57,719 bases of DNA, taken from positions 1 to 57,719 of the forward strand of contig JBAZYS010000005.1 in NCBI GenBank assembly GCA_041659205.1, in the 5' to 3' direction. The translations under genes were made by a program, and so were the position numbers. How positions within the stretch are numbered: position 1 is the first letter of the stretch; each line of letters opens with the position of its first letter. The notes under the pieces were generated by a model, which was not told where the DNA came from, made no database searches, and was given only the letters and a program-made list of their open reading frames with translations. This stretch comes from Minisyncoccota bacterium (GTDB lineage Bacteria > Patescibacteriota > Minisyncoccia > Phycocordibacterales > UBA9973). Below are positions 21,386 to 53,516 of the stretch, piece by piece.

Positions 21386-21407
21386 GTGTGATATACTTAT
21401 TCTATCT

Positions 21408-24003: not shown

Positions 24004-24074
24004 TTGCGAGACTTGGACTCGAACCAAGATAACCTCCTCCAGAGGGAGGTGTCCTACCATTAGACGATCTCGCA
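24004..24074 (-). tRNA. tRNA-Gln (CTG)
   Basis: TGCGAGA/TCTCGCA acceptor; CCTCC-CTCTGGA-GGAGG; T-loop TTCGAGT. Confidence 0.93.
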
Positions 24075-32710: not shown

Positions 32711-33097
32711 ATGAATAATAAAAAAATATTTATCTCAATAATTGGTCTTTTGATTTTAGGTACTATTGCTACCGTGCTCCTTCAGTCAAATAGCACACCT
32801 CCAGGCCCTGGGAAGTATGACACTTTTGCAACTTGTCTAAAGGATAAAGGGGCTGTATTTTATGGAGCTTATTGGTGTCCACATTGCCAATCTCAAAAGA
32901 AACTTTTTGGTTCTTCTGCTAAATTATTACCCTATGTTGAATGTTCTACTGCTGATGCCTCTGCTCAAACGCAAGTCTGTAAAGATAAAAAAATTGAAGG
33001 CTACCCTACTTGGGAATTTGCTGATGGGACACGCATGAATGGGGAAATCCCTCTACAGCAATTAGCTGACAAAACTTCTTGTGTTTTGCCTCAATAA
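32711..33097 (+). CDS. Membrane-anchored thioredoxin-like protein (VKOR-associated type)
   Basis: FYGAYWCPHC, LPYVEC...C, IEGYPTW motifs. Confidence 0.85.
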   Translation: MNNKKIFISIIGLLILGTIATVLLQSNSTPPGPGKYDTFATCLKDKGAVFYGAYWCPHCQSQKKLFGSSAKLLPYVECSTADASAQTQVCKDKKIEGYPTWEFADGTRMNGEIPLQQLADKTSCVLPQ

Positions 33098-33177
33098 ATT
33101 ATCTACTTGTCCCGTATTAAATTTTTGATTACGATACATGACCATTAAAAATAAAAACTTAAAATTTTAATACTGGG

Positions 33178-33732
33178 ATGAATTTGGAATCCGTTCATTA
33201 TTTAAATGTCTTTCTTGGATTAGGGGCTATTCTCCTTCAGATTTTTTCTTTTGTCGCATTATTTTTACTTTTCTTTCGACGGAAAGAAAATATAAAAAAT
33301 GCATACCTTGATTTCATTGATAAACATTTTTTAGTATTAGCCTTTTTAATTTCCTTTTTTTCTTCAATTTTTCCTCTAGTTTATTCTGAAATTATCCATT
33401 TTCTTCCATGTTACCTGTGCTGGTGGCAGAGAATTTTTATGTTTCCAACGTTTTTCTTGTTCGGAACAGCTCTCTGGGACAAGGATAGGAAGGTTGTAAG
33501 ATATGCTGCATCTTTACTTTCTCTCGGTTTGCTCATTTCTTTATACCAAAATTTCTTTTATTATTTTGGAGAGAGTGCAAATATACCTTGTGATGCATCC
33601 GGTATATCATGCTATAAACATTTAGTCTCTGAATTTGGTGGGTATATTTCAATACCAATGCTTGCTTTAACTGCCTTTTTTGCTCTTTTGACATTGCTTG
33701 CCGTCGCTCATTTTTATAGAAAAGAGAATTAG
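33178..33732 (+). CDS. Disulfide bond formation protein, DsbB/BdbC family
   Basis: PCYLCWWQRIFM and a second Cys pair (PC...SC); four TMs. Confidence 0.9.
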   Translation: MNLESVHYLNVFLGLGAILLQIFSFVALFLLFFRRKENIKNAYLDFIDKHFLVLAFLISFFSSIFPLVYSEIIHFLPCYLCWWQRIFMFPTFFLFGTALWDKDRKVVRYAASLLSLGLLISLYQNFFYYFGESANIPCDASGISCYKHLVSEFGGYISIPMLALTAFFALLTLLAVAHFYRKEN

Positions 33733-34627: not shown

Positions 34628-35233
34628 ATGCTACATTTTGATAAAAAAGAGTTAGCGTTGATAAAAAAATTAAACACCCCAGCAAAAGTTCAAAATTTTT
34701 TAAATGGACTTAAGTTTAATTTTGAAAAAGATAAAAGGCAGACCTTGAAATCACCCCTTATGGTTTTAAGAGCAAAAAATGCACATTGTGCAGAGGGAGC
34801 GATTCTAGGTTCCTATATTCTCTCTACTCATGGATTTAGGCCCTATCTAATGCATCTAAAGACCACAAAAGGGGATTATGACCATGTGGTCGCTCCGTTT
34901 AAAGTACGGGGCTTCTGGGGTGCATTATCAAAAACAAATCATGCAGTCTTACGTTACCGAGAGCCAATATATCCCAATATCCGCGCACTTGCATTGTCAT
35001 ATTTTCATGAGTATTTTTTAGATAATGGGTTGAAAACTTTAAGGCAATATTCTGAACTTCTGGATTTGAATACCTTTGAAGATAATTGGATGTTGATGGA
35101 AGGAGACCTTTGGGGGATAGATCAGGAATTAGATAAAATAAAGCATTATGATATTGTACCTAAAACTTATATTAAGAAATTACGTAAAGCAGATAAAATT
35201 GAGATTAAGGCAGGGAAAATAAAAGAATATTAG
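34628..35233 (+). CDS. Conserved hypothetical protein, possibly transglutaminase-like
   Basis: AHCAEGA and DHVVA could provide Cys/His catalytic residues. Confidence 0.65.
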   Translation: MLHFDKKELALIKKLNTPAKVQNFLNGLKFNFEKDKRQTLKSPLMVLRAKNAHCAEGAILGSYILSTHGFRPYLMHLKTTKGDYDHVVAPFKVRGFWGALSKTNHAVLRYREPIYPNIRALALSYFHEYFLDNGLKTLRQYSELLDLNTFEDNWMLMEGDLWGIDQELDKIKHYDIVPKTYIKKLRKADKIEIKAGKIKEY

Positions 35234-35363: not shown

Positions 35364-36068
35364 ATGAAAACAAATAAATTATATTATGTTTTAGGATCAA
35401 TGTTGATATTAAGTAGTTTAGCTTTCTTCGGTTATGCATCAGCAGATAATGATAAGAGTAACGAAGATCGAGGTAAAAGTGAACAATCAAAAGAAGCACA
35501 CATGAGAGGCTCTACTCTTGAGGTTCATATTTCAGACAAAGGGAAAGTAGATGTTCGAGGGGCAAAGGTAACAGCAATATCAGGTAATGTTATCACTGCG
35601 TCTACCTCTTGGGGTGTAGCTAATCTAGTATGGTCAGTGAATGTATCATCAGATACTAACATAGTTAGACTATATGGAGGGAAAAGTTTGGTTTCAGAAA
35701 TTTCTGTTGGAGACTTTGTAAGTTTCAAAGGAAATCTAGTTACTACTTCTGCTTCACCAATTATAGTAAATGCTACTATGGTAAAAGATTGGTCAATTCA
35801 AGTTAGGAATGCAAGTTTTAATGGCACAGTAAAAAGTGTTGATGTTCCTAATAGTAAATTTGTATTTAGTTTTAACAAAAATGGTGATATAACAGTAACA
35901 ACTTCTGCTTCTACTAAATTTACAAAAGGAGAGGTGGCGGGAGTATTTGCGGATGTTATAGTTGGTGCAAAAATTTCAACTAAAGGACTTTATGATTCCC
36001 AGTTGAAACAATTAAATGCGAGTGAGGTTAAAGTGAAGATTCCTGAAGTAGTTAGTTTAAATCATTAA
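35364..36068 (+). CDS. Secreted protein with repeated OB-like domains (DUF5666-like)
   Basis: Signal peptide; two GxVxxV...T...(F)xxxxVG...V.G repeats. Confidence 0.7.
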   Translation: MKTNKLYYVLGSMLILSSLAFFGYASADNDKSNEDRGKSEQSKEAHMRGSTLEVHISDKGKVDVRGAKVTAISGNVITASTSWGVANLVWSVNVSSDTNIVRLYGGKSLVSEISVGDFVSFKGNLVTTSASPIIVNATMVKDWSIQVRNASFNGTVKSVDVPNSKFVFSFNKNGDITVTTSASTKFTKGEVAGVFADVIVGAKISTKGLYDSQLKQLNASEVKVKIPEVVSLNH

Positions 36069-36115: not shown

Positions 36116-37870
36116 TTATAAATTAAAAATATTTGTCAATAATCTTACGAACCAGCTTTCCTGAGAAGGCTCCACTTTTGTGGTGGGCGGAGGTATTTTT
36201 TCTGTATTTATTGGTGTAGTTATAATTATAGGTGTGTTTTTTTGTTTTTTTACAAATTTTTTCTGGACTTTAGTTATTTCTTGAATTTTAGGTTTTTCAA
36301 ATTTTTGCATTATTTGATTCCAAGTTTTACTAGATAGTATTGAGGAGACATAAGCAGTTTCCCAAATTTTAGTATTTATGTTCTCGTTCTTTATTCCACC
36401 ATCTATATCTTGGATTGTAGCGAGATAATCAAGGGGAGTATTGTCGCCCCTTTTCCAATCTTCAGGCTTTTCACCAAGGGCCGTAATACCTTCTAAAGCC
36501 CAGGCAGTAGAAGAAGCATTGCCCCAACCACCATTTTCTTTCTGTTTTTCTCTTAAGAAGTTTTTAGCTTTTTCTAAACTTTCCCCTATCAGAGGGGTAG
36601 GGGAAAAAGGGGAAAGGGCTTCGATGGCTGCACCCGTCATATCTACTGATTCATCAAAAGATCCGTTTTCCTTCTGACGGCTTAGAATAAAAGAAATGTC
36701 ATCGTTTATCATTTTTTCGTCTTGTGTATATCCTGAACTTTGTAAAACAATTAGAGCAAAAATATCATCATTGTCTTCATTTGCATCACCAAATTGTTTT
36801 CCATCAAAGCTTGTTATTATTTTTTCAATATAGTTTTCATTGTTTGTATTGTAGGGATTTAATCCGAGCGAAAGGAGAGCCATCGCATGTCTTTCGTTGT
36901 CAGTCAAAGACATGCCTTCTGTTTTATTCTCTACTGCATATCTAACCAATTTTATTGTTTGGTCTTGGTAATTACTGGAAGCAAAAGCGAGAGTTGCCCA
37001 ATCTGTATAAATATCCTGACCGAAAGAGCCGTTTTTTTCTTGCTGGGTGATTAAAAAATCAAAAGCTTTTTTTAGGTCAAATTTTGTTTTTTCAACAGTA
37101 ATAGGAATGATTTCTTGAGAAATTGGCGTACTTGATGGTTCATTAATAGGAATACTTCCACTCCCTCCTCTTGTTTCTGCTGGGGGGGTAGAGATTTGAA
37201 TATTTACATTGTTAGATGGCACACGTAATGTTTTACTGCCGATAGCATTTAATGAACCAGCTGTATTTAAAACTATAAAGCAAGTTCCGTCAGTGGCTGT
37301 GGTGCAAGTTTGAGTTCCAAGTGTAATTGTGGCTTCAGAGGATGGAGTCCAAAGCATATTATAATTTGCATCAAAGGTGCTTTCTTCTTCTGCAGTAAAT
37401 GTTATGGTGTCACCGATTATTCCAGAACTTTTTGAGGCTGAAATACGTAGTGGATAAGAATTGTAAGTTAAGAGAAGTTCTTCTCCGCTAGAAAGAGAGT
37501 GCTGATTAAGTCCAGTTCCTCCCAAGCTTAGATTATTAAACCAACTCCAAAATTTTGAAAAATCAGGAGTAGTTGTATATCCACTAAGTTCGTTCAACCA
37601 TCCACTTGGAGCATAATTCCAAGTCCAAGTATTTGATAATGCAGGTACGACTTGCTCTATGGCGCATTTACCATTTATGGTGATAGGTGCATCAGGGGCT
37701 GGTGATTCGGCACAAGCTGTAACTGTCTCTGGCCCATTAAATATAACAGTATCATCTGCATAAATTTTTAGAATTATGTTTACAGAATTATCCGCTAAAA
37801 CAATTTGTCGTGTAGAGAAAAACAATATAACTAATAAAACTACTTTTGAAATCTTTTTTATATTTTTCAT
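36116..37870 (-). CDS. Secreted protein: DUF4430-like beta domain + Ig-like domain + prenyltransferase-type alpha/alpha toroid (transcobalamin-like)
   Basis: Signal peptide; FWSWFNN...G......LSSGEELLLTY; four QW-like repeats (FLITQQEKNGSF, ILSRQKENGSF, FLREKQKENGGW, YLATIQDIDGG). Confidence 0.78.
   Translation of the reverse strand: MKNIKKISKVVLLVILFFSTRQIVLADNSVNIILKIYADDTVIFNGPETVTACAESPAPDAPITINGKCAIEQVVPALSNTWTWNYAPSGWLNELSGYTTTPDFSKFWSWFNNLSLGGTGLNQHSLSSGEELLLTYNSYPLRISASKSSGIIGDTITFTAEEESTFDANYNMLWTPSSEATITLGTQTCTTATDGTCFIVLNTAGSLNAIGSKTLRVPSNNVNIQISTPPAETRGGSGSIPINEPSSTPISQEIIPITVEKTKFDLKKAFDFLITQQEKNGSFGQDIYTDWATLAFASSNYQDQTIKLVRYAVENKTEGMSLTDNERHAMALLSLGLNPYNTNNENYIEKIITSFDGKQFGDANEDNDDIFALIVLQSSGYTQDEKMINDDISFILSRQKENGSFDESVDMTGAAIEALSPFSPTPLIGESLEKAKNFLREKQKENGGWGNASSTAWALEGITALGEKPEDWKRGDNTPLDYLATIQDIDGGIKNENINTKIWETAYVSSILSSKTWNQIMQKFEKPKIQEITKVQKKFVKKQKNTPIIITTPINTEKIPPPTTKVEPSQESWFVRLLTNIFNL
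36583..36603. repeat. Degenerate 21-bp palindrome copy inside the CDS
   Basis: CCCCTATCAGAGGGGTAGGGG (18/21) with TTT/AAA flanks like the 47792 copy. Confidence 0.6.
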
Positions 37871-37885
37871 TTCTTTTAAAATTAA

Positions 37886-38341
37886 TTAATAATTAAACTT
37901 TTCATACTTCCAAGACACAACGTCACCCCCTTTAATTTTATAATCTGAAACACCAATTTGAGCCTTAATTCCATTTACATAATAAATCCAGTTTTTTTCT
38001 CCGTTTCCTTTTATTCCATTAATGGAAACTATAAATTTCCCAATTCCTGCATAGTTTTTTTCTGTAAAGTTTATTTTTCCTTCGCTCCGAAGCTTATCCA
38101 TAAAATCGTAAACATTTGTTATTCCTAGGACTGTGCCTTCATAGCGTTTATCATTTATCTCTAAAATAGTTTTTATATTTGTGGATTGAGTATTTTCTGT
38201 ATTTGAAGCATTATTAAACACTTTTTCTTGAGGGAGTATTATTTTTTGTTTTTCAACCCCGTAGAAGAATAGAAAAGATACACTTAAAAAAGCCAAAAGA
38301 GTTATGATTATTATTTTGTTTTTTGTTGTTAATTTTGACAC
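37886..38341 (-). CDS. Membrane-anchored DUF4430 (transcobalamin-like C-terminal domain) protein; GTG start after the attenuator
   Basis: GKFIVSING...NWIYYVNGIKAQIGVSDYKIKGGDVVSWKY motif; N-terminal TM. Confidence 0.85.
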   Translation of the reverse strand: MSKLTTKNKIIIITLLAFLSVSFLFFYGVEKQKIILPQEKVFNNASNTENTQSTNIKTILEINDKRYEGTVLGITNVYDFMDKLRSEGKINFTEKNYAGIGKFIVSINGIKGNGEKNWIYYVNGIKAQIGVSDYKIKGGDVVSWKYEKFNY

Positions 38342-38369
38342 AAAAAAATTCTGTTTAGAGCAGAATTTT
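38342..38369 (-). terminator. Riboswitch-controlled attenuator
   Basis: Minus strand AAAATTCTG-CTCTAAA-CAGAATTTT plus T-tract; its CTGCTC is complementary to GAGCAG at 38395-38400. Confidence 0.8.
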
Positions 38370-38388
38370 GGGGCCCTCAAAAAAGAGG

Positions 38389-38506
38389 GAGATCCTGCTC
38401 GGGATTAATGAAATGATTGGTGTTCGGACTTGTTCCCTCCACCTGTTGGTGTTCGGGACTTACCGTAGCGGCACTGTACTGGAATCTAACCAGTTTCCCC
38501 AATCAA
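38389..38506 (-). ncRNA. Cobalamin riboswitch, compact variant
   Basis: Minus strand TGATTGG-GGAAACTGG-TTAGATT-CCAGT-ACAGTGCCGCTACGGTAA...AAGTCCGAACA-CCAATCA...GAGCAGGATCTC. Confidence 0.88.
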
Positions 38507-38534
38507 TTCTTATAATTTTCAAATGAACTCTCTT

Positions 38535-38562
38535 AGTATATACTTAGATTACATTATGTCAA
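38535..38562 (-). promoter_or_regulatory. Promoter of the riboswitch operon
   Basis: TTGACA-16 bp-TATACT on the minus strand. Confidence 0.6.
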
Positions 38563-39005
38563 AGAAAGGTGTGGAAAAGAAAATAAACAAGATAATGATC
38601 TTTGGGACCTTTGATGGTCTTCATAAAGGACACATTAATTTGTTTAAACAAGCAAAAAACTTCATTAAAAATTCATTTTTAATTGTTTCAATAGCAAGAG
38701 ATAAAAATGTTCTTAGAATAAAGGGAGTGTATCCGGATAAAGACGAGCGGGAGAGAATGATTTTAGTAAAAAAATGTAAATTAATTGATCAAGTAGTTCT
38801 TTCGGGTGTAAAAAATCATCTCCCACATATCGTAAAAGTACATCCGGATATTATTGCCCTTGGTTATGATCAAAAAGCTTATGTTAAAAACTTGAAAAAG
38901 GATTTAAAAAATAAGGGTATTTTGGTTAAAATTATTAGGTTGAAACCATATAAAGAAAAAACATATAAAAATCACTTGCTTAAAAAAAGAATATTATTAC
39001 AATAA
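38556..39005 (+). CDS. Cytidylyltransferase-family protein, probable FAD synthase (RibL type)
   Basis: FGTFDGLHKGH, IARD, PDIIALGYDQ motifs. Confidence 0.8.
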   Translation: MSKKGVEKKINKIMIFGTFDGLHKGHINLFKQAKNFIKNSFLIVSIARDKNVLRIKGVYPDKDERERMILVKKCKLIDQVVLSGVKNHLPHIVKVHPDIIALGYDQKAYVKNLKKDLKNKGILVKIIRLKPYKEKTYKNHLLKKRILLQ

Positions 39006-39037: not shown

Positions 39038-40354
39038 ATGGAGGAAATTAATATAGTAAAAGATATTAAAAAAGTTTTTAATAAAGATTTTGTTTCCGTT
39101 TTCGTTACAAGTTTTCTGTCTTTTCTTATTGTCATTTTAATTGGATTTGCGGTAGTGTGGCATTATCGAGCTAACGTTTTTGGTTATTTTGCTAAGGAAT
39201 ATTTGAAAGAAGGCCAGAATATAAACAATGACAATGATGATCCAAAAGTTTCGGCCGAGAAAATTATTGAGAAACAGTCAATTTTTTCTCAGGATTCTTT
39301 TGTGATTGATACAGTCAAAAAGACCAATCCAGCTGTTGTGTCTATTATTATTTCTCAAGAAGTTCCAAAATACGAAGCCTATATTGACCCTAACCAACAA
39401 ACAAATCCATTCGGAGATTTATTCCCTAATTTTCCTGGTTTTAATTTCAACGTTCCTCAATATCGTCAGAATGGGACAGAGAAAAAAGAAATTGGAGGTG
39501 GTTCAGGATTTTTTGTATCAAGTGATGGCTTAATTGTTACTAATAAACACGTAGTTTCTCAAAAAAATGTGGAATATACAGTTTTTACCAATAATGGTAA
39601 AAAACACACTGCAAAAGTTGTCGCCCGGGATCCAGTCCTAGATATTGCACTTATTAAAATAGAAGGTTCGGATTTCCCTTATCTTTCCCTTGGAGATTCA
39701 AATTCACTTCAAGTGGGACAGAGTGTAATAGCTATTGGTAATGCTTTAGGGGAATATAGAAATACTGTTTCTACGGGTGTTGTTTCTGGTTTAGCTCGTT
39801 CTATAACTGCAGGAGATAATTCTGGTAATACGGAAGTGTTAGATAAAGTTATTCAGACTGATGCAGCGATAAATCCCGGAAATTCAGGAGGACCCTTACT
39901 TAACTTGAGAGGGGAAGTAATTGGAGTAAATGTTGCAGTTGCTCAAGGTTCTCAAAGCATTGGTTTTGCCTTGCCAATTAATAGTGTAAAAAGTTCTATT
40001 GAATCTGTAAAATCCACCGGGAAAATTGTTCGTCCATATTTAGGAATACGTTATGTACCAATAAATGCTGAGATGAAAGATAAAAATAATTTAACAGTGG
40101 ACTATGGAGTACTCGTAAAACAGGGTGCGACAGCTAGTGAACTGGCTGTTATTCCTGGAAGTCCAGCAGATAAAGCTGGGATTGTGGAGAATGATATTGT
40201 TTTAGAGATTGATGGTGTAAAGTTAGATGATAAAAATAATTTGGCTAATGTAATTCGAGAGAAAAAAATTGGACAAGTAATCAATCTAAAAATTCTTCAT
40301 CGAGGGGTTGAAAAAAATATTTCTGTGACTCTTGAGGCTTCAAAAGATAATTAA
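39038..40354 (+). CDS. htrA: HtrA/DegP-family serine protease with PDZ domain
   Basis: TNKHVV, DIAL, TDAAINPGNSGGPL, PGSPA motifs. Confidence 0.95.
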   Translation: MEEINIVKDIKKVFNKDFVSVFVTSFLSFLIVILIGFAVVWHYRANVFGYFAKEYLKEGQNINNDNDDPKVSAEKIIEKQSIFSQDSFVIDTVKKTNPAVVSIIISQEVPKYEAYIDPNQQTNPFGDLFPNFPGFNFNVPQYRQNGTEKKEIGGGSGFFVSSDGLIVTNKHVVSQKNVEYTVFTNNGKKHTAKVVARDPVLDIALIKIEGSDFPYLSLGDSNSLQVGQSVIAIGNALGEYRNTVSTGVVSGLARSITAGDNSGNTEVLDKVIQTDAAINPGNSGGPLLNLRGEVIGVNVAVAQGSQSIGFALPINSVKSSIESVKSTGKIVRPYLGIRYVPINAEMKDKNNLTVDYGVLVKQGATASELAVIPGSPADKAGIVENDIVLEIDGVKLDDKNNLANVIREKKIGQVINLKILHRGVEKNISVTLEASKDN

Positions 40355-41502
40355 GTATTTGTTCTATTTATCGTAGAAGATAAATAAATTCCATAGAGCA
40401 TCAGGGCTCCTAGTACAAGGAAAATATAATTAAAAGACGGAGCAAAGATTAAAATAATAAAAGCGATGATAGGACCTAAGATATAAGCAAGTGGGGAGGA
40501 GGTTCGGTAAACTCCTACATATTCTTCATTTTCTGGTTTTATATGCTTAAAGAAATGTGAGTCACCCATGACTTCGACCGTGGCAGCGCCTATGCGAGTA
40601 GTAAATAGCAATAAAGCCCATATCCAGACTGCATGTTCTTTTATAAAAAATAGCATCAAAGTTGATAGTGAAATAATACTAAAACCAAGCATCAGCATTT
40701 TTCTTTCACCGACTTTGTCAGAGCGTTTTCCTAACGGGAATTGAACTAAGACAAATGGTAGAAGCATGATGGTAAATATTATACCGATTTCTTTCCAATT
40801 AAAGCCTAAGTGGGTGAACAAATATATCGGGGTATAAATAACCATCCAGCAATAAAAAAATTGAAGTAAGAAACTTATGAGATATGCACGAAAAAGATTT
40901 TTATCTTTTATGAATTTTTTTACATATTTAAAAGAATTTATTTTATCATAGATTGGCTCTGGTATATTTTTTAGGTTTAAAAATGAGACTATAAAAAATA
41001 GCATCATTACTGAAAAACTTACAAGATAAATTGAACTAAAAGAGAACCCTCCCAAAGTAGTTCCAAATGCTAGTTGTGCCAGAATCCAGGCTGCATTGCA
41101 CACTGTTAGATAAATGCCTCTAATCCTACCCGTCGTTCTGTCTTTGGAAAATATTTTTAGAAGCTCATCTAGAGAAAAAATTATTAGAGTATTCATCGAA
41201 AAACCTAGAATAAACATAAAAATAGCATTCCAGACATTGTGGATGAGAGCAAGGGCTAAGAAAGAAAAAGCATCTAATAAGATAATTGAAATTAGAAATT
41301 TGTAGCCACCTATTTTTTTAAATATTTTAGGAGCTAGTAAAAGGGAAATTATTGAAGTAGCTGATCCTAGAACATAAATAATTCCAACAAATTTTTCACC
41401 AACGAAAGTAGAGACATAGCTTGAGTTTATATAAGAGGCTAGGGCTATCGGTATTGAAAACAAAAAGCCGGCAAAGTATATAATTTTTCTATTATGGTTC
41501 AT
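40351..41502 (-). CDS. MFS transporter
   Basis: About 12 TMs; GKRSDKVGERK motif A. Confidence 0.88.
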   Translation of the reverse strand: MNHNRKIIYFAGFLFSIPIALASYINSSYVSTFVGEKFVGIIYVLGSATSIISLLLAPKIFKKIGGYKFLISIILLDAFSFLALALIHNVWNAIFMFILGFSMNTLIIFSLDELLKIFSKDRTTGRIRGIYLTVCNAAWILAQLAFGTTLGGFSFSSIYLVSFSVMMLFFIVSFLNLKNIPEPIYDKINSFKYVKKFIKDKNLFRAYLISFLLQFFYCWMVIYTPIYLFTHLGFNWKEIGIIFTIMLLPFVLVQFPLGKRSDKVGERKMLMLGFSIISLSTLMLFFIKEHAVWIWALLLFTTRIGAATVEVMGDSHFFKHIKPENEEYVGVYRTSSPLAYILGPIIAFIILIFAPSFNYIFLVLGALMLYGIYLSSTINRTNT

Positions 41503-41547: not shown

Positions 41548-43428
41548 TTATACGCTCAAGATAACAGGGATGACTAAGGGTCTTTTGCCAGTTTTTTGAT
41601 ATAGGAATTTTGAAATATTTTCTCCAAGGGATGCCTTAATGTGGTCAAAGTCTGTAGGGTTAAAATCTGTTATATGCTTAACAGGCATTTTAGCTGTGGC
41701 ATCTTCGATTGATTTTTTTATCATTATTCTTACTTGGCGCAGAAGTTCTTGGTTTTCTTTTAAGTAAACAAAGCCACGAGAAATAAGGTCAGGGGATTTT
41801 TTTAATTTTCCAGTTTTTTGATCAAGCAGGGCAATAATGACAAACATTCCATCCTGGGCGAGCATTACTCGGTCGCGGATAACTACATCCTGAGTGTCTG
41901 AAATAGAAGCGCCATCTACCATCATCGGAGCACTTGGGGCTTTTTCTTTGCGCATCGTAATCTTTTGTCCGTCGGCAGAAATTTCAATGATTGAACCATT
42001 GTCAGGCACGATTACATTTTCTTCGGACATTCCGAGTTCCATCGCTAGTTCTTTATGTTTAACAAGGAAGGAATGATGTCCATGGATTGGTATGAAGAAT
42101 TTCGGATGGGTTTTACGATGAAGCCACTTTATGTCTTCTTGGTTGCCATGACCTGTTGCATGGACGAAATCTTCTCCAGGGGTACGATAACTTATAATAC
42201 GTACACCTTGTCTGGTGAGGCTATCCTTCATTTTCTGAACCTGAAGTTCGTTTCCGGGGATAACAGAAGCAGACAATATGACGGTGTCTCCTTTTTGAAG
42301 AGAAAACTTTGCATTAGATTTATTAGCTGCACGATTTAATGCAGCAAATTCTTCACCCTGAGCACCGGTCATTAAAATGATAATTTTGTTTGCTGGATAA
42401 TTATTTACTTCCTCAAGAGGAATAATGGTGCCTTTTTTAGGTTGGAAAAATCCTGCTTCGATTGCTACGTCGATGTTTGTTTTCATTGAACGTCCATCAG
42501 TGGCTATTTTTTTACCCAAAGCTTCAGCTGTTTTAACAACATGAGCTAACCTAGTGATATGCGAAGAGAAAGCAGCAATAATTATTCGGCCATTTACTTT
42601 TTTAATTAAATTTTCTAATCCTTGATGCACCTTTGTTTCTGAAAGAGAAAATCCCTCATTCTCAATGTTTGTAGAATCAGTCATCATTAAAAGAACTTTC
42701 GCTTTATCAAAAATCGAATATTCTTTTTCTTCTTCTTTTGAAACTACTCCATCAATTTGGTCGAGTTTGTAATCTCCGGGAGTAACTATCCATCCATGTT
42801 CTGTTTCTATAATTATTCCCATTGAGTCTGGGATCGTGTGAGTAACACCAAAGAATCTAATTTTTATTTTTCCGCAAGTAATAACAGAATCTTTTTCCAC
42901 AACATTTTCTTTCATTGCTGGTAAGTGGGGGAATTCCGCTTGTCTCTTCTTCATCATTAGAATAGACAAATTTCTTGAATATACAGGTGGGTTTCCTATT
43001 CGTGAAAGAACAAGTGGTACACCACCAATATGGTCTAAGTGTCCGTGCGTAATAAGCAGTGCACGGATTTTGTCTTTCCGTTCTTCTAAGTATGTTGTAT
43101 TGGGAATAATATAATCAACTCCAGGTGTCGCTTCTGTAGAAAAATGCATCCCAGCATCTATTACGATGATATCATCACCGATTTCTATTGCGGTCATGTT
43201 CTTACCGATTTCCTCTACTCCACCAAGTGGAATAACACGAACTACTCCAGGTTCTGGAGGAGGGATTTTGCCACCGGGCATTTTATATTGGCTTTTTCCT
43301 GGGAAAGGGCGGGAGCCAGAACTTTTTCCAAATTTTTTTTGGGTGTATTGGTAGGTAGAACTTTTCTGCATTTTTTTTTCTTTCAGGGGCTCTGTGAGCG
43401 CCGTCTTTTCCATGTTCTGGTGCAGCAT
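41548..43428 (-). CDS. rnj: Ribonuclease J (start uncertain, 43428 to 43371)
   Basis: PLGGVEEIGKN, THGHLDHIG, HTIPDS, HATGHG motifs. Confidence 0.95.
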   Translation of the reverse strand: MLHQNMEKTALTEPLKEKKMQKSSTYQYTQKKFGKSSGSRPFPGKSQYKMPGGKIPPPEPGVVRVIPLGGVEEIGKNMTAIEIGDDIIVIDAGMHFSTEATPGVDYIIPNTTYLEERKDKIRALLITHGHLDHIGGVPLVLSRIGNPPVYSRNLSILMMKKRQAEFPHLPAMKENVVEKDSVITCGKIKIRFFGVTHTIPDSMGIIIETEHGWIVTPGDYKLDQIDGVVSKEEEKEYSIFDKAKVLLMMTDSTNIENEGFSLSETKVHQGLENLIKKVNGRIIIAAFSSHITRLAHVVKTAEALGKKIATDGRSMKTNIDVAIEAGFFQPKKGTIIPLEEVNNYPANKIIILMTGAQGEEFAALNRAANKSNAKFSLQKGDTVILSASVIPGNELQVQKMKDSLTRQGVRIISYRTPGEDFVHATGHGNQEDIKWLHRKTHPKFFIPIHGHHSFLVKHKELAMELGMSEENVIVPDNGSIIEISADGQKITMRKEKAPSAPMMVDGASISDTQDVVIRDRVMLAQDGMFVIIALLDQKTGKLKKSPDLISRGFVYLKENQELLRQVRIMIKKSIEDATAKMPVKHITDFNPTDFDHIKASLGENISKFLYQKTGKRPLVIPVILSV

Positions 43429-43575
43429 GGGTAGGTGTTTTGTTTTCTTTCTTATCTTCTATTTTGAGAGAAGAAAAAGATAATCTTGTTTTTTTCATCA
43501 TTTACTTTTACTTTAATATTAATGTTTTAATAATAGGAGTTTTCTGCCTTATCGGCAGATTGTCTTCAGGACATT

Positions 43576-45330
43576 TTATTTAGAAAATACTTTCCAAACG
43601 TTCTCAGTTTCGGTGTACCATAAATATATATTTGAAAAACGGTCTGTAGAAGAGGTGAGGTGATCAATAGAAAGACCTTTTAATTTTTTTGATGTTACAT
43701 ATATAAAGTTAGGGCTATACAAGAAAGCTGCGGGCATGTCTTTTTTAATTTCATCTTCAAATTGGGCATATTTTTTAATTCTGGACTGCTCATCAATAGT
43801 GACAGCTGCATCTTCCAATATTTTATCTACTTTCGCATTAGTATATACAGCCACATTGAGACCCGGGTCTTTCCTTTGGGAAGAATGCCAAAAAGCAGAT
43901 AAATCGGACTCGTGGTTTATGATTTGTCCGAAGAGTAGAGCATCATAATCACGAGGACGAATTACACTTTGATTTAAATTTCCAACTTCAAAAGTTTTGA
44001 TATCAACTTTTATTCCCACTTTTACTAAATCCTGTTTGATTATTTCTGCAGTTTTGGCGAGTTCTCCAGCATTTCCAGTTGAAATAGAAAATTCTAGTGT
44101 TGAAGTAGTTTTCTTTTTATTCTTACCTGTAGTGGTTTTCTGTAAAAATCCGTCAGGACCTTTTGTCCAACCATCTTTGGCTAAATTCTTTTCTACATTT
44201 TGTAAGATTTCTTCACGAGAAGAAGTATTTTCAAGAGCTAACTTTTGATAAGCAATCATGTTTGGTGGGATTGGTTCATCTAATGCGACTCCGTAACCGA
44301 AGAGGACTTCGCGAATTATTTGATCTTTGTCGATCGCTTGGTCGATTGCTTTGGTAATGATTTTGTCAGTAAAAAGAATATTTTTATTTTGATTAAAAAA
44401 TAAACCAAAGACTCTCGGAAGCACGGAACTTTCTATTTGATAATTCCTTTCTTTTAAAATACCTGCATTTAAGGGGGTGATAGAGCTTATCTGATCTACG
44501 TTCCCATCTTCAAGCCCCGCCATAAGTTCATTTTCATTTGAATAAAAATGTAGGCTCAAATTCTTTATATATGGTTCACCGAGAATAAATTTCTTGAATG
44601 CAACTAATTCAAAAGAATTTATAACGCCAGATGATTCCTTGGAAACGCTATCTATCATATATGGCCCTGAGCCAATCGGGGAAGTATTTGCTGTATTGAG
44701 CTCAATCGCAGAATTATTCCATAAATGTTCTGGCATTATTCCAAGAGTTACATTTTCTAGGAAAGATGGGTAAGGTTGCTTCAATGTGAACTCTATTGTT
44801 TTCTCATCTATTTTTGTAGTAGTGACACCATCCCAGTCGACTTTACGAAAACTTTTTATTACGGGGTCTTTAATTTTATTTATTGTAAAAATAACATCAT
44901 TTACAGTAAGAGGCTCTCCATCTTGAAAATATAATTTATCTTTTAAAACGAAAGTATAAGTTAGGCCATTTTTTGACATTTCATATTTTTCTGCTAAGTC
45001 TGGGGTGATAGTACCATCAGGATTTTTTCTCATTAGTCCAGAATAGACAAGGGAGACAAGATCAAGGTCGGCAGGGGAGTTCGCAAGGATTGGATTTATG
45101 AAACGAGGAGTACCGATAATGCCTTCGGAGATTGAGCCACCGTGAAGGGGTACGCTGACCATTAAAGATTTGTTTATGCTTTCAAGGATTGAGACAGTGC
45201 TTAATAAAAGTGTTAATAATAAAACAATAAAAACAACACGTTCTTTTCTGGAGAACGTACTGAAAATTGAATTAATTTCGTCTTTTTTAGGCAACTTAAA
45301 ATTGCGAATTCGACTATATAAATTTTGCAT
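43576..45330 (-). CDS. ABC transporter substrate-binding protein (OppA/family 5)
   Basis: LVYSGLM...PDLAE, GSGPY, WHSSQ motifs. Confidence 0.9.
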   Translation of the reverse strand: MQNLYSRIRNFKLPKKDEINSIFSTFSRKERVVFIVLLLTLLLSTVSILESINKSLMVSVPLHGGSISEGIIGTPRFINPILANSPADLDLVSLVYSGLMRKNPDGTITPDLAEKYEMSKNGLTYTFVLKDKLYFQDGEPLTVNDVIFTINKIKDPVIKSFRKVDWDGVTTTKIDEKTIEFTLKQPYPSFLENVTLGIMPEHLWNNSAIELNTANTSPIGSGPYMIDSVSKESSGVINSFELVAFKKFILGEPYIKNLSLHFYSNENELMAGLEDGNVDQISSITPLNAGILKERNYQIESSVLPRVFGLFFNQNKNILFTDKIITKAIDQAIDKDQIIREVLFGYGVALDEPIPPNMIAYQKLALENTSSREEILQNVEKNLAKDGWTKGPDGFLQKTTTGKNKKKTTSTLEFSISTGNAGELAKTAEIIKQDLVKVGIKVDIKTFEVGNLNQSVIRPRDYDALLFGQIINHESDLSAFWHSSQRKDPGLNVAVYTNAKVDKILEDAAVTIDEQSRIKKYAQFEDEIKKDMPAAFLYSPNFIYVTSKKLKGLSIDHLTSSTDRFSNIYLWYTETENVWKVFSK

Positions 45331-50462: not shown

Positions 50463-50486
50463 GTGTGGTAAGATAAATTAAATCAT

Positions 50487-51494
50487 ATGAAAAAATATAA
50501 ATTTCACGTATCTGGTACTCATTGTGCATCATGTAAAATCTTAATTGAAGATATTTTAGGTGAGCAAGATTTTGTAAAAAATCCGCAGGTTGATTTAAAG
50601 AAAGAAATTGTAGAAATTGAAACTGAAAGCGAAAAAAACGCAGATGAACTTGCAGAAATTCTTACATCTAAAATAAAACAGAATGGTTACACGTTGTCTG
50701 TAGAAAAAGTAATTTTAGAAAAAAAAGATGATGTTATCTGGACCGCTGTACCAATAGGACTTGTTTTTTTGGCTCTATTTTTCTTATTACAAAAATCAGG
50801 GTTTCTCAATCTAGGCATCGGTGGTCAAACGACACCTCAGGCAAGTTTTATTATTGGGCTAATAGCTTCAGTTTCTAGCTGCTTGGCAATTGTGGGAGGG
50901 CTTGTTTTGTCTTTGTCAGCAAAAATAGAACAAGACGATAAAGAAAATACCAAGAAACCATTTATTTTATTTCACTTAGGTAGATTATTAAGTTTTGGTA
51001 TCCTTGGAGGAGTTCTCGGATTAATTGGAGAAGCTGTCGGAATAAATTTTGTTTTTTCTTCAATCTTAGGAATAATTGCTTCAACTGTGATGATATTGCT
51101 TGGGCTTAATCTTGTTGGGGTATTTAAAAAAAGTACTCTTACCTTACCTAGTCATTTGTTTTCTTTTTTTAGAAAAGTAGAACATGCGACCTGGGCGCCA
51201 CTCTTTGTGGGCATTGGAACATTTTTCTTGCCTTGTGGTTTTACTCAATCAATGCAAGTCGCGGCACTTTCAAGCGGAACATTTACGTCAGGTTTTCTAA
51301 TTATGCTTGCTTTCGCATTAGGCACATTGCCGATGCTTGCTCTTCTGTCATTCGGCTCAGCATCATTTGCACATTCAAAACATGCACCACTATTCTTTAA
51401 AGTTGCGGGGGTTGTCGTTATTGGCCTCGGTATATTCGCATTACTTGCTGGTCTAGCAGGACTAGGTATTATTAACCCACTATTTAATATTTAA
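50487..51494 (+). CDS. HMA domain + sulfite-exporter/DsbD_2-type membrane protein
   Basis: GTHCASC, SSCLAIVGG, LPCGF motifs. Confidence 0.85.
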   Translation: MKKYKFHVSGTHCASCKILIEDILGEQDFVKNPQVDLKKEIVEIETESEKNADELAEILTSKIKQNGYTLSVEKVILEKKDDVIWTAVPIGLVFLALFFLLQKSGFLNLGIGGQTTPQASFIIGLIASVSSCLAIVGGLVLSLSAKIEQDDKENTKKPFILFHLGRLLSFGILGGVLGLIGEAVGINFVFSSILGIIASTVMILLGLNLVGVFKKSTLTLPSHLFSFFRKVEHATWAPLFVGIGTFFLPCGFTQSMQVAALSSGTFTSGFLIMLAFALGTLPMLALLSFGSASFAHSKHAPLFFKVAGVVVIGLGIFALLAGLAGLGIINPLFNI

Positions 51495-51512
51495 TTTTGA
51501 TACAATCAACAT

Positions 51513-53515: not shown

Positions 53516-53516
53516 T

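What the first reader, a model, noticed from the sequence alone, without database searches (positions are those of the whole stretch)
36116..38341. Transcobalamin-like B12 capture pair in a CPR-type genome
Seen: under the cobalamin riboswitch lie a membrane-anchored DUF4430 protein and a secreted 584-aa protein combining a DUF4430-like domain, an Ig-like domain and a QW-repeat alpha/alpha toroid. Established: animal transcobalamin and intrinsic factor clamp B12 between an alpha6/alpha6 barrel and a beta domain that corresponds to DUF4430. Inference: a surface corrinoid-scavenging system with the domains in reverse order plus a second beta domain in trans. No BtuFCD, ECF S-component (CbrT) or BtuM is in the operon, so the import route is unknown. 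It may take B12 from a host or feed a class II ribonucleotide reductase.
Basis: partly seen in the sequence, partly recalled or inferred. Interest (0 to 1): 0.82.

Follow-up and report, generated by a model that had tools for sequence, protein, structure and literature searches.

The report
Riboswitch-controlled transcobalamin-like B12 capture pair
A tiny-genome (Patescibacteria/CPR) bacterium keeps, behind a vitamin-B12-sensing RNA switch, two cell-surface proteins built from the same two domains as animal transcobalamin, most likely to catch B12 from its surroundings; this kind of bacterial system was predicted in 2007, so it is a well-supported new member, not a new kind.

Summary
An Rfam cobalamin riboswitch (window 38390-38551, minus strand) has a near-consensus promoter and a terminator-type expression platform. 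It precedes a two-gene operon.

- **Small protein (151 aa):** a membrane-anchored DUF4430 protein whose model superposes on the isolated human transcobalamin beta domain (TM 0.83, rmsd 1.7 Å).
- **Large protein (584 aa):** signal peptide, divergent DUF4430/SLBB-like domain, Ig-like sandwich, flexible linker, 12-helix QW-repeat alpha6/alpha6 toroid, disordered stalk and a conserved C-terminal amphipathic tail.

Riboswitch, small gene and large gene occur together in essentially every related locus with enough upstream sequence. All are Patescibacteria, and at least 195 species genomes encode a relative.

In about a dozen species the pair lies beside an AdoCbl-dependent class II ribonucleotide reductase, a CbrT-like ECF S-component and often a PduO-type adenosyltransferase. 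That points to a cobamide ligand, a probable import route and a probable consumer. None of these genes is in this window.

The toroid fold does not separate transcobalamin from squalene cyclases or complement TED domains; context does that.

Burroughs et al. (2007) predicted bacterial SLBB+toroid B12 scavengers in either domain order with a second SLBB gene. A split version in Lactobacillus sakei was linked to heme uptake. No binding data exist.

Verdict: new member of a known, predicted kind; moderate interest.

The parts
38535..38562 (-). Sigma-70-like promoter TTGACA-16-TATACT directly upstream of the riboswitch
   Evidence: 11 of 12 consensus positions, the best match in the scanned region. 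This is a consensus match only.
38390..38551 (-). Cobalamin riboswitch aptamer
   Evidence: Rfam RF00174 at 38398-38548, 38.3 bits against GA 31.5. My own covariance model R1 places it at 38390-38551 and finds the same element upstream of the gene pair in 78 of 86 sources.
38342..38400 (-). Expression platform. The invariant 3' segment GAGCAGGAU (38400-38392) can pair with AUUCUGCUC (38366-38358). The alternative is the terminator hairpin AUUCUG/CAGAAU (38366-38361 with 38353-38348) followed by U7 (38348-38342), ending one base before the GTG start.
   Evidence: Sequence and MFE fold showing the antiterminator pairing. A hairpin AATTCTGC-loop-GCAGAATT plus a U-run recurs in at least 52 of 64 distinct related leaders. 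The stem is weak here (2 G-C pairs) and fails the generic terminator scan. The switching logic is inferred.
37886..38341 (-). Gene 1: 151-aa membrane-anchored solo SLBB/DUF4430 protein. TM helix aa 7-27 (38261-38323), linker, beta-grasp aa 55-148 (37898-38179).
   Evidence: Pfam PF14478, E=9e-13. AF2 pLDDT 83. Foldseek top hits are TC, haptocorrin and IF beta domains and 3u7z. A homologue lies directly upstream of the toroid gene in 84 of 89 loci.
36116..37870 (-). Gene 2: 584-aa surface protein, signal peptide + SLBB-like + Ig-like + alpha6/alpha6 toroid + stalk + C-terminal amphipathic tail
   Evidence: ORF. AF2 model pLDDT 84. More than 371 homologues; those listed with an organism name are all Patescibacteria.
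37463..37786 (-). aa 29-136: divergent SLBB/DUF4430-like beta-grasp domain. It has the same beta-beta-alpha-beta4 order as gene 1, invariant W108 and a C53/C69 pair.
   Evidence: hhalign 85%, E=5.9e-6 against the small-protein family. Profile hits to haptocorrin and IF beta domains and 3u7z, E=0.04-0.2. 15 of 40 relatives hit Pfam DUF4430 here. No significant Pfam hit in the window protein itself.
37190..37456 (-). aa 139-227: Ig-like beta-sandwich (C189/C197 pair)
   Evidence: AF2 strands. Weak profile hits to cellulosomal scaffoldin modules, E about 0.03-0.07. Relatives carry Big_3 or Bact_surface_Ig-like domains.
36296..37093 (-). aa 260-525: 12-helix alpha6/alpha6 toroid with QW-type repeats. 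Invariant polar residues sit at the N-termini of every second helix: Y288-T-D-W291, T323/E326/R327, N367-D-D369, D410/T412, S453-T455-W457, W503/T505/Y507.
   Evidence: AF2. Pfam SQHop_cyclase_C, 1.7e-8. Foldseek hits to TED, SHC, drimenyl-PP synthase, TC and haptocorrin. Conservation.
36119..36283 (-). aa 530-571: disordered K/P/T-rich stalk. aa 572-584: conserved basic and amphipathic tail (SWFVRLLTNIFNL), a candidate in-plane membrane anchor.
   Evidence: pLDDT below 50 for aa 530-571 and a helix at aa 573-582. The tail is conserved in nearly all of 40 relatives. Its hydrophobic moment is exceeded by 40 of 5000 permutations. The anchoring role is inferred.

Best explanation
**What it is.** A B12-repressed, cell-surface cobamide-capture module of a Patescibacteria (Paceibacteria/Nomurabacteria-type) cell.

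**Regulation.** When intracellular AdoCbl is low, the riboswitch leader forms an antiterminator and the two genes are transcribed. When B12 binds the aptamer, a conserved hairpin plus U-tract just before the start codon terminates transcription. The terminator is seen in the sequence; the switching is inferred.

**The two proteins.**
- Gene 1 gives a transcobalamin-beta-type (SLBB/DUF4430) domain held at the outer face of the membrane by an N-terminal TM helix and a short linker.
- Gene 2 gives a Sec-exported protein in which an alpha6/alpha6 toroid is joined by a flexible linker to an Ig-like spacer and a second, divergent SLBB domain. It is probably tethered to the membrane by a long disordered stalk and a C-terminal amphipathic helix.

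**Capture.** As in transcobalamin, intrinsic factor and haptocorrin, the corrinoid would be clamped between the conserved polar mouth of the toroid and a beta-grasp domain. That domain could be the one in cis or the membrane-anchored one in trans.

**Hand-over and use.** The anchored SLBB is well placed to pass the ligand to a membrane importer. In relatives that importer is most likely the adjacent CbrT-like ECF S-component. The cofactor is then adenosylated by a PduO-type transferase and used by class II ribonucleotide reductase NrdJ. In this window the importer and the consumer are not encoded and must lie elsewhere in the genome.

**Shown and inferred.**
- Shown: sequence features, folds, conservation and gene neighbourhoods.
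- Inferred: ligand binding, the clamp geometry, the hand-over and the membrane tethering.
For: - **Riboswitch.** It scores above Rfam's gathering score. It is conserved on the same strand upstream of the pair in 78 of 86 sources, and the other 8 are truncated contigs.
- **Leader.** A promoter precedes it. A terminator-like hairpin is conserved in at least 52 of 64 leaders, and its 3' arm repeats the invariant riboswitch 3' segment.
- **Small protein.** Pfam DUF4430, E=9e-13. The 19 Foldseek hits with E<=0.001 are all TC, haptocorrin or IF beta domains or the DUF4430 structure 3u7z. Among them is 5np4, an isolated TC beta domain crystallised with cyanocobalamin.
- **Large protein, toroid.** The alpha6/alpha6 toroid matches TC and haptocorrin alpha domains at E about 5e-6 to 2e-5. 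12 of 40 relatives hit Pfam Cobalamin_bind PF01122, best 4.8e-7.
- **Large protein, N-terminal domain.** It is related to DUF4430.
- **Linkage.** The two genes are adjacent in 84 of 89 loci.
- **B12 context in relatives.** NrdJ lies beside the pair (TIGR02505, E=4e-85; Pfam RNR-II_ins_dom). So does a CbrT-like S-component, whose profile's only significant PDB hit is 6fnp_A, E=0.0026 over nearly full length. 6FNP is ECF-CbrT, a proven B12 importer (PMC5997447). PduO sits next to the pair in 5 loci, and a CbrT-like-nrdJ-PduO operon stands alone in L090.
- **Export signals.** A signal peptide, a TM anchor and paired cysteines are present, and DsbB and thioredoxin-like genes lie nearby.
- **Literature.** It matches the prediction of Burroughs et al. 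2007 (PMC1796856).
Against: - No binding or transport data exist for any member. The literature searches found none.
- The toroid is not specifically TC-like. C3/C5 TED, drimenyl-PP synthase and SHC score as well or better in Foldseek. SHC scores far better by sequence, 2e-10 against 2.9 for TC.
- In the window protein, PF01122 is insignificant (E=0.087) and the N-terminal domain has no Pfam DUF4430 hit.
- pTM of 0.52 and a disordered linker give no confident beta/toroid docking. No multimer model could be run.
- The window holds no importer and no B12-dependent enzyme.
- The only experimentally studied split homologue pair, L. sakei Lsa1839/1840, was linked to heme uptake, not B12.
- The terminator stem here is weak.
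Confidence: 0.74

Rival explanations
1. The architecture is the same, but the role is sequestration or competition rather than feeding an importer. A surface or shed high-affinity corrinoid sink, haptocorrin-like, would hoard B12 or bind inactive analogues. Alternatively it strips B12 from a host cell surface during episymbiosis.
For: No importer lies in the operon or window. Most loci (synteny class A) lack an adjacent S-component. Haptocorrin shares the fold.
Against: The riboswitch turns the genes on when the cell itself lacks B12, which fits acquisition. In about 12 species the pair abuts CbrT-like, NrdJ and PduO genes. In L085 the S-component gene directly follows the toroid gene.
Confidence: 0.1
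2. The ligand is heme or another tetrapyrrole rather than a cobamide, as proposed for the split transcobalamin-like pair Lsa1839/Lsa1840 with the ECF transporter Lsa1836-1838 of Lactobacillus sakei.
For: bioRxiv 10.1101/864751 reports the same two domain types as separate secreted proteins in an operon the authors link to heme uptake.
Against: A cobalamin riboswitch controls the operon in every locus. The neighbours are AdoCbl-dependent NrdJ, a PduO adenosyltransferase and a CbrT-like protein. The heme-binding proposal for Lsa1839/1840 in that paper rests on homology modelling and docking.
Confidence: 0.06
3. The toroid is catalytic or glycan-directed. It could be a class II terpene-cyclase or prenyltransferase-like enzyme, or an alpha/alpha-barrel polysaccharide lyase or hydrolase acting outside the cell, with the SLBB domains as accessory binding modules.
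For: The best sequence matches are squalene-hopene cyclases at 2e-10 and Pfam SQHop_cyclase_C in 40 of 40 relatives. Foldseek matches drimenyl-PP synthase at rmsd 3.5-3.8 Å and a polysaccharide lyase. The near-invariant N367-D368-D369-I-F-A, usually preceded by D366, resembles the DxDD(T)A acid motif.
Against: There is a single toroid domain, whereas class II cyclases need a beta-gamma didomain (established knowledge). NCBIfam cyclase models score 20-31 bits against cut-offs of 322-851. D366 is only 74% conserved. The protein is Sec-exported, away from isoprenoid diphosphates. The conserved D/T-x-A helix caps recur in every repeat and so look like a fold feature. Nothing explains B12 control or the NrdJ/CbrT/PduO neighbourhood.
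Confidence: 0.04
4. It is a TED-like or adhesin surface protein. Like complement and alpha2-macroglobulin TED domains, the toroid would mediate attachment to host or matrix, expressed under B12 starvation to promote host contact, without binding B12 itself.
For: The top Foldseek hits are C5, C3 and A2M, with Ig/MG-like domains plus TED aligned over the whole length. Pfam TED_complement is hit weakly in 34 of 40 relatives. CPR cells are often episymbionts (general knowledge).
Against: No thioester CGEQ motif occurs in 0 of 120 homologues. rmsd values of 15-30 Å show that only the fold classes match. The partner and the N-terminal domain are B12-binding-type beta-grasps.
Confidence: 0.04

Closest known systems
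Bacterial secreted SLBB (transcobalamin-C-terminal-like) + alpha/alpha-toroid proteins predicted as B12 scavengers (Burroughs, Balaji, Iyer & Aravind 2007, Biol Direct 2:4; PMC1796856)
   Same: Signal peptide. A beta-grasp SLBB fused to an alpha/alpha toroid, explicitly in either order. Ig-fold accessory domains. A second paralogous extracellular SLBB gene in the same operon. Hosts that lack B12 synthesis. A proposed clamp of B12 between the two domains.
   Different: Those examples were Firmicutes and Archaea, and 'generally' sat in operons with CbiO/CbiQ-like ECF genes. Here the operon has only the two capture genes, it is in Patescibacteria, and it is always behind a cobalamin riboswitch (not discussed in that paper). 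Where present, the neighbour is only an S-component plus NrdJ and PduO. The large protein ends in a conserved amphipathic tail.
Animal transcobalamin / intrinsic factor / haptocorrin (PDB 2bb5, 2pmv, 4kki; Pfam PF01122 + PF14478)
   Same: The same two folds, an alpha6/alpha6 barrel plus a beta-grasp with a hairpin insert, joined by a flexible linker and extracellular. The small-protein model superposes on the TC beta domain at rmsd 1.7 Å. The toroid matches TC at E about 5e-6.
   Different: The domain order is reversed, an Ig-like domain is inserted, and a second beta domain sits on a separate membrane-anchored chain. The toroid's sequence is closer to QW-repeat cyclases than to PF01122. There is no receptor system (CD320 or cubilin), and delivery is presumably to a prokaryotic importer.
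Lactobacillus sakei Lsa1839 (beta-like) / Lsa1840 (alpha-like) with ECF transporter Lsa1836-1838 (bioRxiv 10.1101/864751)
   Same: Secreted transcobalamin-beta-like and toroid proteins encoded side by side, proposed to scavenge a tetrapyrrole and pass it to an ECF S-component.
   Different: There the alpha and beta domains are fully split and co-operonic with a complete ECF module, and the authors argue for heme. Here a beta domain is also fused to the toroid, no ECF module is in the operon, and regulation and neighbours point to cobamide.
ECF-CbrT vitamin B12 importer of Lactobacillus delbrueckii (PDB 6FNP; eLife 2018, PMC5997447)
   Same: The 173-190-aa membrane protein next to the pair in about 12 related genomes has 6fnp_A (CbrT) as its only significant PDB sequence match (E=0.0026, near full length), plus Pfam ECF-ribofla_trS.
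   Different: The similarity is distant. No EcfA/A'/T genes were seen beside it. It is absent from this window. ECF-CbrT as characterised needs no extracellular binding protein.
Bacteroides surface B12-binding lipoprotein BtuG (eLife 2018, PMC6143338)
   Same: Functional analogy: surface-exposed high-affinity corrinoid capture upstream of a membrane transporter.
   Different: By my recollection BtuG is a beta-propeller, an unrelated fold, and it works with the outer-membrane TonB-dependent BtuB. Patescibacteria lack an outer membrane. I only listed this paper and did not read it in full.

Membership tests
Cobalamin riboswitch (Rfam RF00174, clan CL00101) | Covariance-model score at or above the curated gathering score | tested here: met
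   38.3 bits against 31.5, full-length model match 1-189. Orthologous leaders hit RF00174, AdoCbl-II or AdoCbl models.
Cobalamin riboswitch (Rfam RF00174, clan CL00101) | Sits in the 5' leader of genes for B12 uptake, synthesis or B12-independent isozymes, with an expression platform | tested here: met
   It lies between a promoter-like site and the start codon. A hairpin plus U-tract is conserved in at least 52 of 64 leaders. It is conserved upstream of the pair in 78 of 86 sources. Ligand-dependent switching was not tested.
SLBB / DUF4430 (Pfam PF14478; transcobalamin beta domain) | Profile match above the Pfam gathering score | tested here: met
   Small protein: 48.9 bits against 23.8. For the N-terminal domain of the 584-aa protein this is NOT met in the window sequence, where there is no hit at E<=1. 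It is met in 15 of 40 relatives.
SLBB / DUF4430 (Pfam PF14478; transcobalamin beta domain) | Beta-grasp fold with the extra beta-hairpin after the helix, superposable on TC, IF or HC beta domains | tested here: met
   Small protein: Foldseek 5no0 TM 0.83, rmsd 1.7 Å; the 19 hits with E<=0.001 are all TC, HC, IF or 3u7z. Large protein aa 29-136 has the same secondary-structure order and hhalign 85%, E=5.9e-6. A separate fold search of that domain was not possible.
Eukaryotic cobalamin-binding proteins (Pfam PF01122 alpha domain; TC/IF/HC) | Sequence membership in PF01122 | tested here: not met
   Window protein E=0.087, 12.2 bits against cut-off 25. 12 of 40 relatives reach E<=0.01, best 4.8e-7. 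This is a related toroid, not a member.
Eukaryotic cobalamin-binding proteins (Pfam PF01122 alpha domain; TC/IF/HC) | alpha6/alpha6 barrel followed, in the same chain, by a C-terminal beta domain | tested here: not met
   The barrel is present with 12 helices, and TC and HC are hit at E about 5e-6 to 2e-5. The order is beta-Ig-alpha, the reverse.
Eukaryotic cobalamin-binding proteins (Pfam PF01122 alpha domain; TC/IF/HC) | High-affinity binding of one cobalamin at the alpha/beta interface | not testable with these tools
   Needs purified protein. No multimer or ligand modelling was available. pTM of 0.52 gives no reliable inter-domain geometry.
Bacterial SLBB + toroid B12-scavenging surface proteins (Burroughs et al. 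2007) | Secreted or surface protein fusing SLBB and an alpha/alpha toroid, in either order | tested here: met
   The signal peptide is read from the sequence and the AF2 helix at aa 2-19.
Bacterial SLBB + toroid B12-scavenging surface proteins (Burroughs et al. 2007) | Second paralogous extracellular SLBB protein in the same operon | tested here: met
   The gene at 37886-38341 ends 15 nt upstream of the toroid gene's start on the same strand. This is conserved in 84 of 89 loci.
Bacterial SLBB + toroid B12-scavenging surface proteins (Burroughs et al. 2007) | Operon or neighbourhood with CbiO/CbiQ-like (ECF) transporter genes | tested here: not met
   None in the operon or the 57.7-kb window. 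About 12 related species have only an S-component-like gene adjacent. The paper describes this feature as usual rather than defining.
Class II terpene cyclases (squalene-hopene cyclase family) | Two alpha/alpha barrel domains (beta-gamma) enclosing the active site; full-length family model score | tested here: not met
   Only one 12-helix barrel is present. TIGR01787 scores 31 bits against 322.7, and TIGR01507 scores 24.5 against 431.
Class II terpene cyclases (squalene-hopene cyclase family) | Catalytic DxDD acid motif | tested here: inconclusive
   D366-N-D-D369-I-F-A is present. N367, D368 and D369 are 98-100% conserved, while D366 is 74% conserved. Similar D/T helix caps occur in every repeat (domain 3 alignment).
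Thioester-containing TED domains (C3 / alpha2-macroglobulin) | CGEQ thioester motif | tested here: not met
   0 of 120 homologues carry it. The Pfam TED hit is below its cut-off, 18.4 against 22.

The most novel reading that the evidence does not exclude
The pair could work as a two-beta-domain relay with no animal counterpart. The toroid, with either its own degenerate SLBB or the membrane-anchored SLBB in trans, grabs a cobamide at the end of a long flexible stalk, possibly directly from a host cell surface during episymbiosis. The membrane-anchored SLBB then carries it alone to the importer; an isolated TC beta domain has been crystallised with cyanocobalamin (5np4). In the majority synteny class that importer is not an adjacent ECF S-component. 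It could be an unrecognised route, for instance the MFS protein that is syntenic in 54 of 89 loci. If so, B12 piracy for NrdJ-dependent dNTP synthesis would be a core, near-universal dependency of Paceibacteria.
Probability: 0.15. Interest if true: 0.72.

Novelty: new member of a known kind. Interest (0 to 1): 0.5.

Why it matters
Patescibacteria/CPR have minimal genomes and depend on other cells for most cofactors, and what they take up, and how, is largely unknown.

This locus and its roughly 200 species-level relatives suggest a compact B12 economy with four steps:
1. Riboswitch-controlled surface capture by transcobalamin-type domains.
2. Import by a CbrT-like S-component.
3. Adenosylation by PduO.
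4. Use by class II ribonucleotide reductase for DNA precursors.

This gives an easily expressed pair of soluble ectodomains with which to test, for the first time, the 2007 prediction that bacterial SLBB+toroid proteins bind B12. That prediction also underlies the proposal that animals acquired transcobalamin from bacteria. It also offers a marker for B12 dependence in uncultured CPR lineages. It does not reveal a new kind of system.

Tried and rejected
- **Fold search of the full 584-aa model.** I hoped it would single out transcobalamin. It returns every alpha6/alpha6 class (TED, cyclases, lyase, TC, HC) with similar scores, so it cannot separate the hypotheses. I could not crop the model or read its coordinates to test beta/toroid docking or to map conserved residues onto TC's B12 contacts.
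- **Single-sequence PDB searches of both proteins.** These gave only noise. Profiles were needed.
- **NCBIfam on both proteins.** Only far sub-threshold cyclase hits, and nothing for the small protein.
- **Looking for the importer or a B12 enzyme in the window.** Pfam scans of about 50 ORFs and phmmer with NrdJ, CbrT-like and PduO queries found none.
- **Same-contig test for synteny class A.** I compared contig lengths in the CbrT-like hit list to see whether class A genomes carry CbrT-like elsewhere on the same contig. Only class B contigs matched among the 120 listed of 2598 hits, so this is inconclusive.
- **The MFS gene (40351-41502) as importer.** It is syntenic in 54 of 89 loci. It lies outside the riboswitch unit, is often separated by divergent genes, and travels with RNase J and SBP_bac_5 as a block. 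I treat it as plain synteny and keep it only in the 'novel case'.
- **The conserved convergent 201-aa gene (34628-35233).** It is on the opposite strand and present only in class A, so I do not count it as part of the system.
- **Literature searches.** I searched for experimental work on DUF4430 or bacterial transcobalamin-like proteins, and for B12 uptake in CPR. Only the 2007 prediction and the L. sakei preprint turned up.

Full report
**1. What is in the sequence**

On the minus strand, window 36116-38562 holds a compact unit.
- A near-consensus sigma-70-type promoter, TTGACA-16-TATACT, lies at 38562-38535.
- It is followed directly by a cobalamin riboswitch aptamer: Rfam RF00174 at 38398-38548, 38.3 bits against a gathering score of 31.5, with a full-length model match. 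My own covariance model extends it to 38390-38551.
- The leader ends in a hairpin, AUUCUG-CUCUAAA-CAGAAU, followed by seven U's that stop one base before a GTG at 38341.
- The invariant 3' end of the aptamer (GAGCAGGAU, 38400-38392) is complementary to the 5' arm of that hairpin. The minimum-free-energy fold of the free leader uses this alternative pairing.

Two genes follow, 15 nt apart.
- 37886-38341 encodes 151 aa from the GTG. The mechanical ORF reaches a TTG at 38380, but relatives start at the position matching the GTG.
- 36116-37870 encodes 584 aa.
- The next gene is convergent (35364-36068, + strand), so the operon has two genes.

**2. The small protein**

- Pfam DUF4430 matches at E=9e-13.
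- An AlphaFold2 model built on 48 homologues (pLDDT 83) shows a TM helix at aa 7-27, a roughly 27-residue low-confidence linker and a beta-beta-alpha-beta4 domain at aa 55-148.
- Against the PDB, the 15 best Foldseek matches are transcobalamin or haptocorrin chains. The JCSG DUF4430 structure 3u7z and intrinsic factor follow, filling all 19 matches with E<=0.001.
- The isolated human TC beta domain (5no0) aligns over 102 columns at rmsd 1.7 Å, TM 0.83. 5np4 is that same isolated domain bound to cyanocobalamin. Ubiquitin-like folds appear only from E about 6e-3.

**3. The large protein**

The model was built on 40 homologues (pLDDT 84, pTM 0.52). It shows:
- a signal-peptide helix at aa 2-19;
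- a beta-beta-alpha-beta4 domain at aa 29-136, with the same order of elements as the small protein;
- a beta-sandwich at aa 139-227;
- a disordered linker at aa 235-258;
- twelve helices at aa 266-520;
- a disordered K/P/T-rich stretch at aa 530-571;
- a terminal helix at aa 573-582.

The N-terminal domain gives no Pfam hit in this sequence, but three lines tie it to DUF4430/SLBB.
- hhalign of its family alignment against the small-protein family gives 85% probability and E=5.9e-6. It aligns the signature G-x-(F/L)-(I/L)-x-x-I-x-G ... W-x-(Y/W)-x-(V/N)-N ... G-(D/E).
- The family profile hits the beta domains of haptocorrin (E=0.039) and intrinsic factor (E=0.2), and 3u7z (E=0.12), with exactly this region.
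- 15 of 40 relatives have a Pfam-significant DUF4430 there.

The toroid carries four to five QW-type repeats.
- It hits SQHop_cyclase_C in 40 of 40 relatives, TED_complement in 34 and Cobalamin_bind (PF01122) in 12, best 4.8e-7.
- By fold it matches complement C3/C5/A2M TED-containing chains, drimenyl-diphosphate synthase (rmsd 3.5-3.8 Å), squalene-hopene cyclase, and transcobalamin and haptocorrin (E 5e-6 to 2e-5), all within about two orders of magnitude in E-value.
- By sequence profile it prefers SHC, 2e-10 against 2.9 for TC.
- The fold is therefore a generic alpha6/alpha6 barrel. Neither fold nor sequence shows that it is 'the transcobalamin alpha domain'.

Invariant polar residues sit at the N-termini of every second helix: Y288-T-D-W, T323/E326/R327, N367-D-D, D410/T412, S453-T455-W457, W503/T505/Y507. 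I infer that they line one mouth of the barrel. That is where ligands or substrates sit in this fold class.

**4. Is it more than chance, and what travels with it**

- The protein database holds more than 371 relatives of the large protein and about 100 of the small one. All listed hits that carry an organism name come from Patescibacteria, often from the same contigs.
- A scan of one genome per GTDB species found relatives in 195 genomes. The best 80 are all Paceibacterota, Nomurabacteria or related Patescibacteria.
- In 89 loci, including the window, the small gene lies directly upstream of the large one in 84.
- A covariance model built from five leaders finds the riboswitch on the same strand upstream of the pair in 78 of 86 sources. 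The 8 without it are contigs cut less than 900 nt upstream.
- The terminator-like hairpin (AATTCTGC-loop-GCAGAATT plus a U-run) recurs in at least 52 of 64 distinct leaders, with stem variants such as ATTCCGC/GCGGAAT.

Two neighbourhood classes exist.
- Class A includes the window. Its order is SBP_bac_5, RNase J, MFS, then HtrA and a cytidylyltransferase in some loci, then the riboswitch, the pair and a convergent 200-aa gene.
- Class B covers about 12 species (L007, L011-L014, L017, L027, L052, L063, L069, L087, L089). The pair follows a 760-780-aa reductase and a 173-190-aa membrane protein.
- The reductase hits the AdoCbl-dependent RTPR model at E=4e-85 and Pfam's B12-dependent RNR insertion domain.
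- A profile of the membrane protein has one significant PDB sequence hit, 6fnp_A, at E=0.0026 over positions 12-148 against 17-157. 6FNP is ECF-CbrT, a demonstrated ATP-dependent B12 and cobinamide importer whose S-component CbrT binds cobalamin with nanomolar affinity (PMC5997447).
- In five class B loci a PduO-type ATP:cob(I)alamin adenosyltransferase sits between nrdJ and the riboswitch.
- In L085 the S-component gene follows the toroid gene.
- In L090 a CbrT-like-nrdJ-PduO operon stands alone, without riboswitch or capture pair.
- The CbrT-like family is large in this phylum, with at least 2598 hits.

**5. Mechanism (committed reading)**

Shown:
- a B12 riboswitch with a conserved terminator-type platform;
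- two exported proteins made of TC-type domains;
- strict co-occurrence of riboswitch and both genes;
- recurrent adjacency to a B12 importer-like protein, a B12-activating enzyme and a B12-dependent enzyme.

Inferred:
- Low AdoCbl leaves the antiterminator in place, so the pair is made.
- The toroid mouth plus a beta-grasp domain clamp a cobamide as in TC, IF and HC.
- The membrane-anchored SLBB, and probably the C-terminal amphipathic tail of the large protein, keep the complex at the cell surface.
- The ligand passes to a CbrT-like S-component, is adenosylated and serves NrdJ.

Support for the tail: it is conserved as (K/R)xWFxRLLxxIFxxF, and its hydrophobic moment is exceeded by only 40 of 5000 permutations.

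In this window the importer and the consumer are absent. For this organism those last steps rest on relatives.

I put 0.74 on cobamide capture for uptake.

**6. Rivals**

- A sequestration or competition role without import (0.10) fits the missing importer. It fits less well with induction by the cell's own B12 shortage and with the class B neighbourhoods.
- Heme as ligand (0.06) is suggested by the L. sakei Lsa1839/1840 preprint. There the binding claim is by homology modelling and docking, and it is contradicted here by the riboswitch and the NrdJ/PduO/CbrT context.
- A catalytic toroid (0.04) is suggested by the cyclase-like sequence and by N367-D-D369-I-F-A, usually preceded by D366, which resembles DxDD. 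Against it: there is one barrel instead of the beta-gamma didomain; family models score a tenth of their cut-offs; D366 is only 74% conserved; and the protein is exported.
- A TED-like adhesin (0.04) lacks the thioester motif, found in 0 of 120 homologues.

**7. Comparison with what is known**

Burroughs, Balaji, Iyer and Aravind (2007, PMC1796856) defined the SLBB superfamily. [quoted passage not shown] They also noted hosts lacking B12 synthesis and a predicted role in scavenging B12. They proposed that animals acquired transcobalamin from such bacteria.

The present locus meets all the structural criteria of that predicted kind.

It differs in these respects:
- the phylum;
- riboswitch control in every locus;
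- uncoupling from ECF genes in most genomes;
- the NrdJ/PduO/CbrT-like linkage;
- the C-terminal tail.

It is not a member of the eukaryotic PF01122 family: the score is below cut-off and the domain order is reversed. It most likely works like that family.

I found no experimental B12-binding study of any bacterial member.

**8. Verdict**

- Novelty: new member of a known, computationally predicted kind.
- Interest: 0.5. The system is well defined, widespread and easy to test, and it bears on CPR dependency and on the origin of transcobalamin. It is not a surprise to a B12 or domain-evolution specialist.

Noticed in passing
window 36119-36157 (-), aa 572-584 of the 584-aa protein; also aa 530-571: The extreme C-terminus is a conserved basic and amphipathic tail, (K/R)xWFxRLLxxIFxxF, in nearly all relatives. 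It follows a disordered K/P/T-rich stalk. It looks like an in-plane membrane anchor rather than a TM segment or a known sorting signal.
   Followed up: partly
window 32711-33732 (+); aa C53/C69 and C189/C197 of the 584-aa protein: A thioredoxin-like gene and a DsbB gene lie about 2.4 kb from the operon, and similar genes flank the pair in L007 and L089. The large protein has exactly two close cysteine pairs, one in each beta domain, which suggests disulfides formed outside the cell.
   Followed up: partly
L087 1683-7788; L012, L017, L052, L070; L090 10001-13397: Related genomes hold a compact B12 module: CbrT-like S-component, class II RNR (nrdJ), a PduO-type adenosyltransferase, then the riboswitch and capture pair. 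In L090 the first three genes form an operon on their own, without a riboswitch.
   Followed up: yes
window 40351-41502 (-) and 41548-45330 (-): An MFS transporter, RNase J and an SBP_bac_5 solute-binding protein are syntenic with the capture pair in most class A loci (MFS in 54 of 89). In L001 the MFS gene lies directly upstream of the riboswitch on the same strand. This is probably plain synteny; a role in B12 import is untested.
   Followed up: partly
window 38523-39005 (+): The divergent cytidylyltransferase-like ORF, as called from the ATG at 38523, overlaps the 5' end of the riboswitch and its promoter on the opposite strand. A later ATG near 38556 would reduce the overlap. The two divergent units share a very short control region.
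   Followed up: no
window 34628-35233 (+): A 201-aa gene with a weak transglutaminase-like DUF553 match here (a vasohibin-like match in L003) lies near the 3' end of the toroid gene on the opposite strand in 64 of 89 loci. In this window another + strand gene (35364-36068) sits between them. It occurs only in synteny class A, and its function is unknown.
   Followed up: no
window 48147-51893 (+): A copper or heavy-metal cluster: an HMA-domain P-type ATPase (771 aa), an HMA-DsbD_2 membrane protein and a cupredoxin-like protein.
   Followed up: no
window 51941-55455 (+) and 20717-22331 (+): A MacB-type tripartite-like set (HlyD-family adaptor, FtsX-type permease, ABC ATPase) in an organism thought to lack an outer membrane, and a separate FtsE/FtsX pair.
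   Followed up: no
window 1-85, 14166-14506, 19570-19730, 24004-24074: A 5'-truncated 5S rRNA at the contig start and six tRNA genes, five of them in two clusters (three at 14166-14506, two at 19570-19730). The release-factor ORF called from a GTG at 19699 overlaps the tRNA at 19658-19730, so its true start is probably later.
   Followed up: no
window 15574-17019 (+): A 481-aa surface protein with MBG, HYR, Bact_surface_Ig-like and peptidoglycan-binding domains. The same Ig-like domain type is fused N-terminally to the toroid protein in long-form relatives (P0023, P0036, P0080).
   Followed up: no
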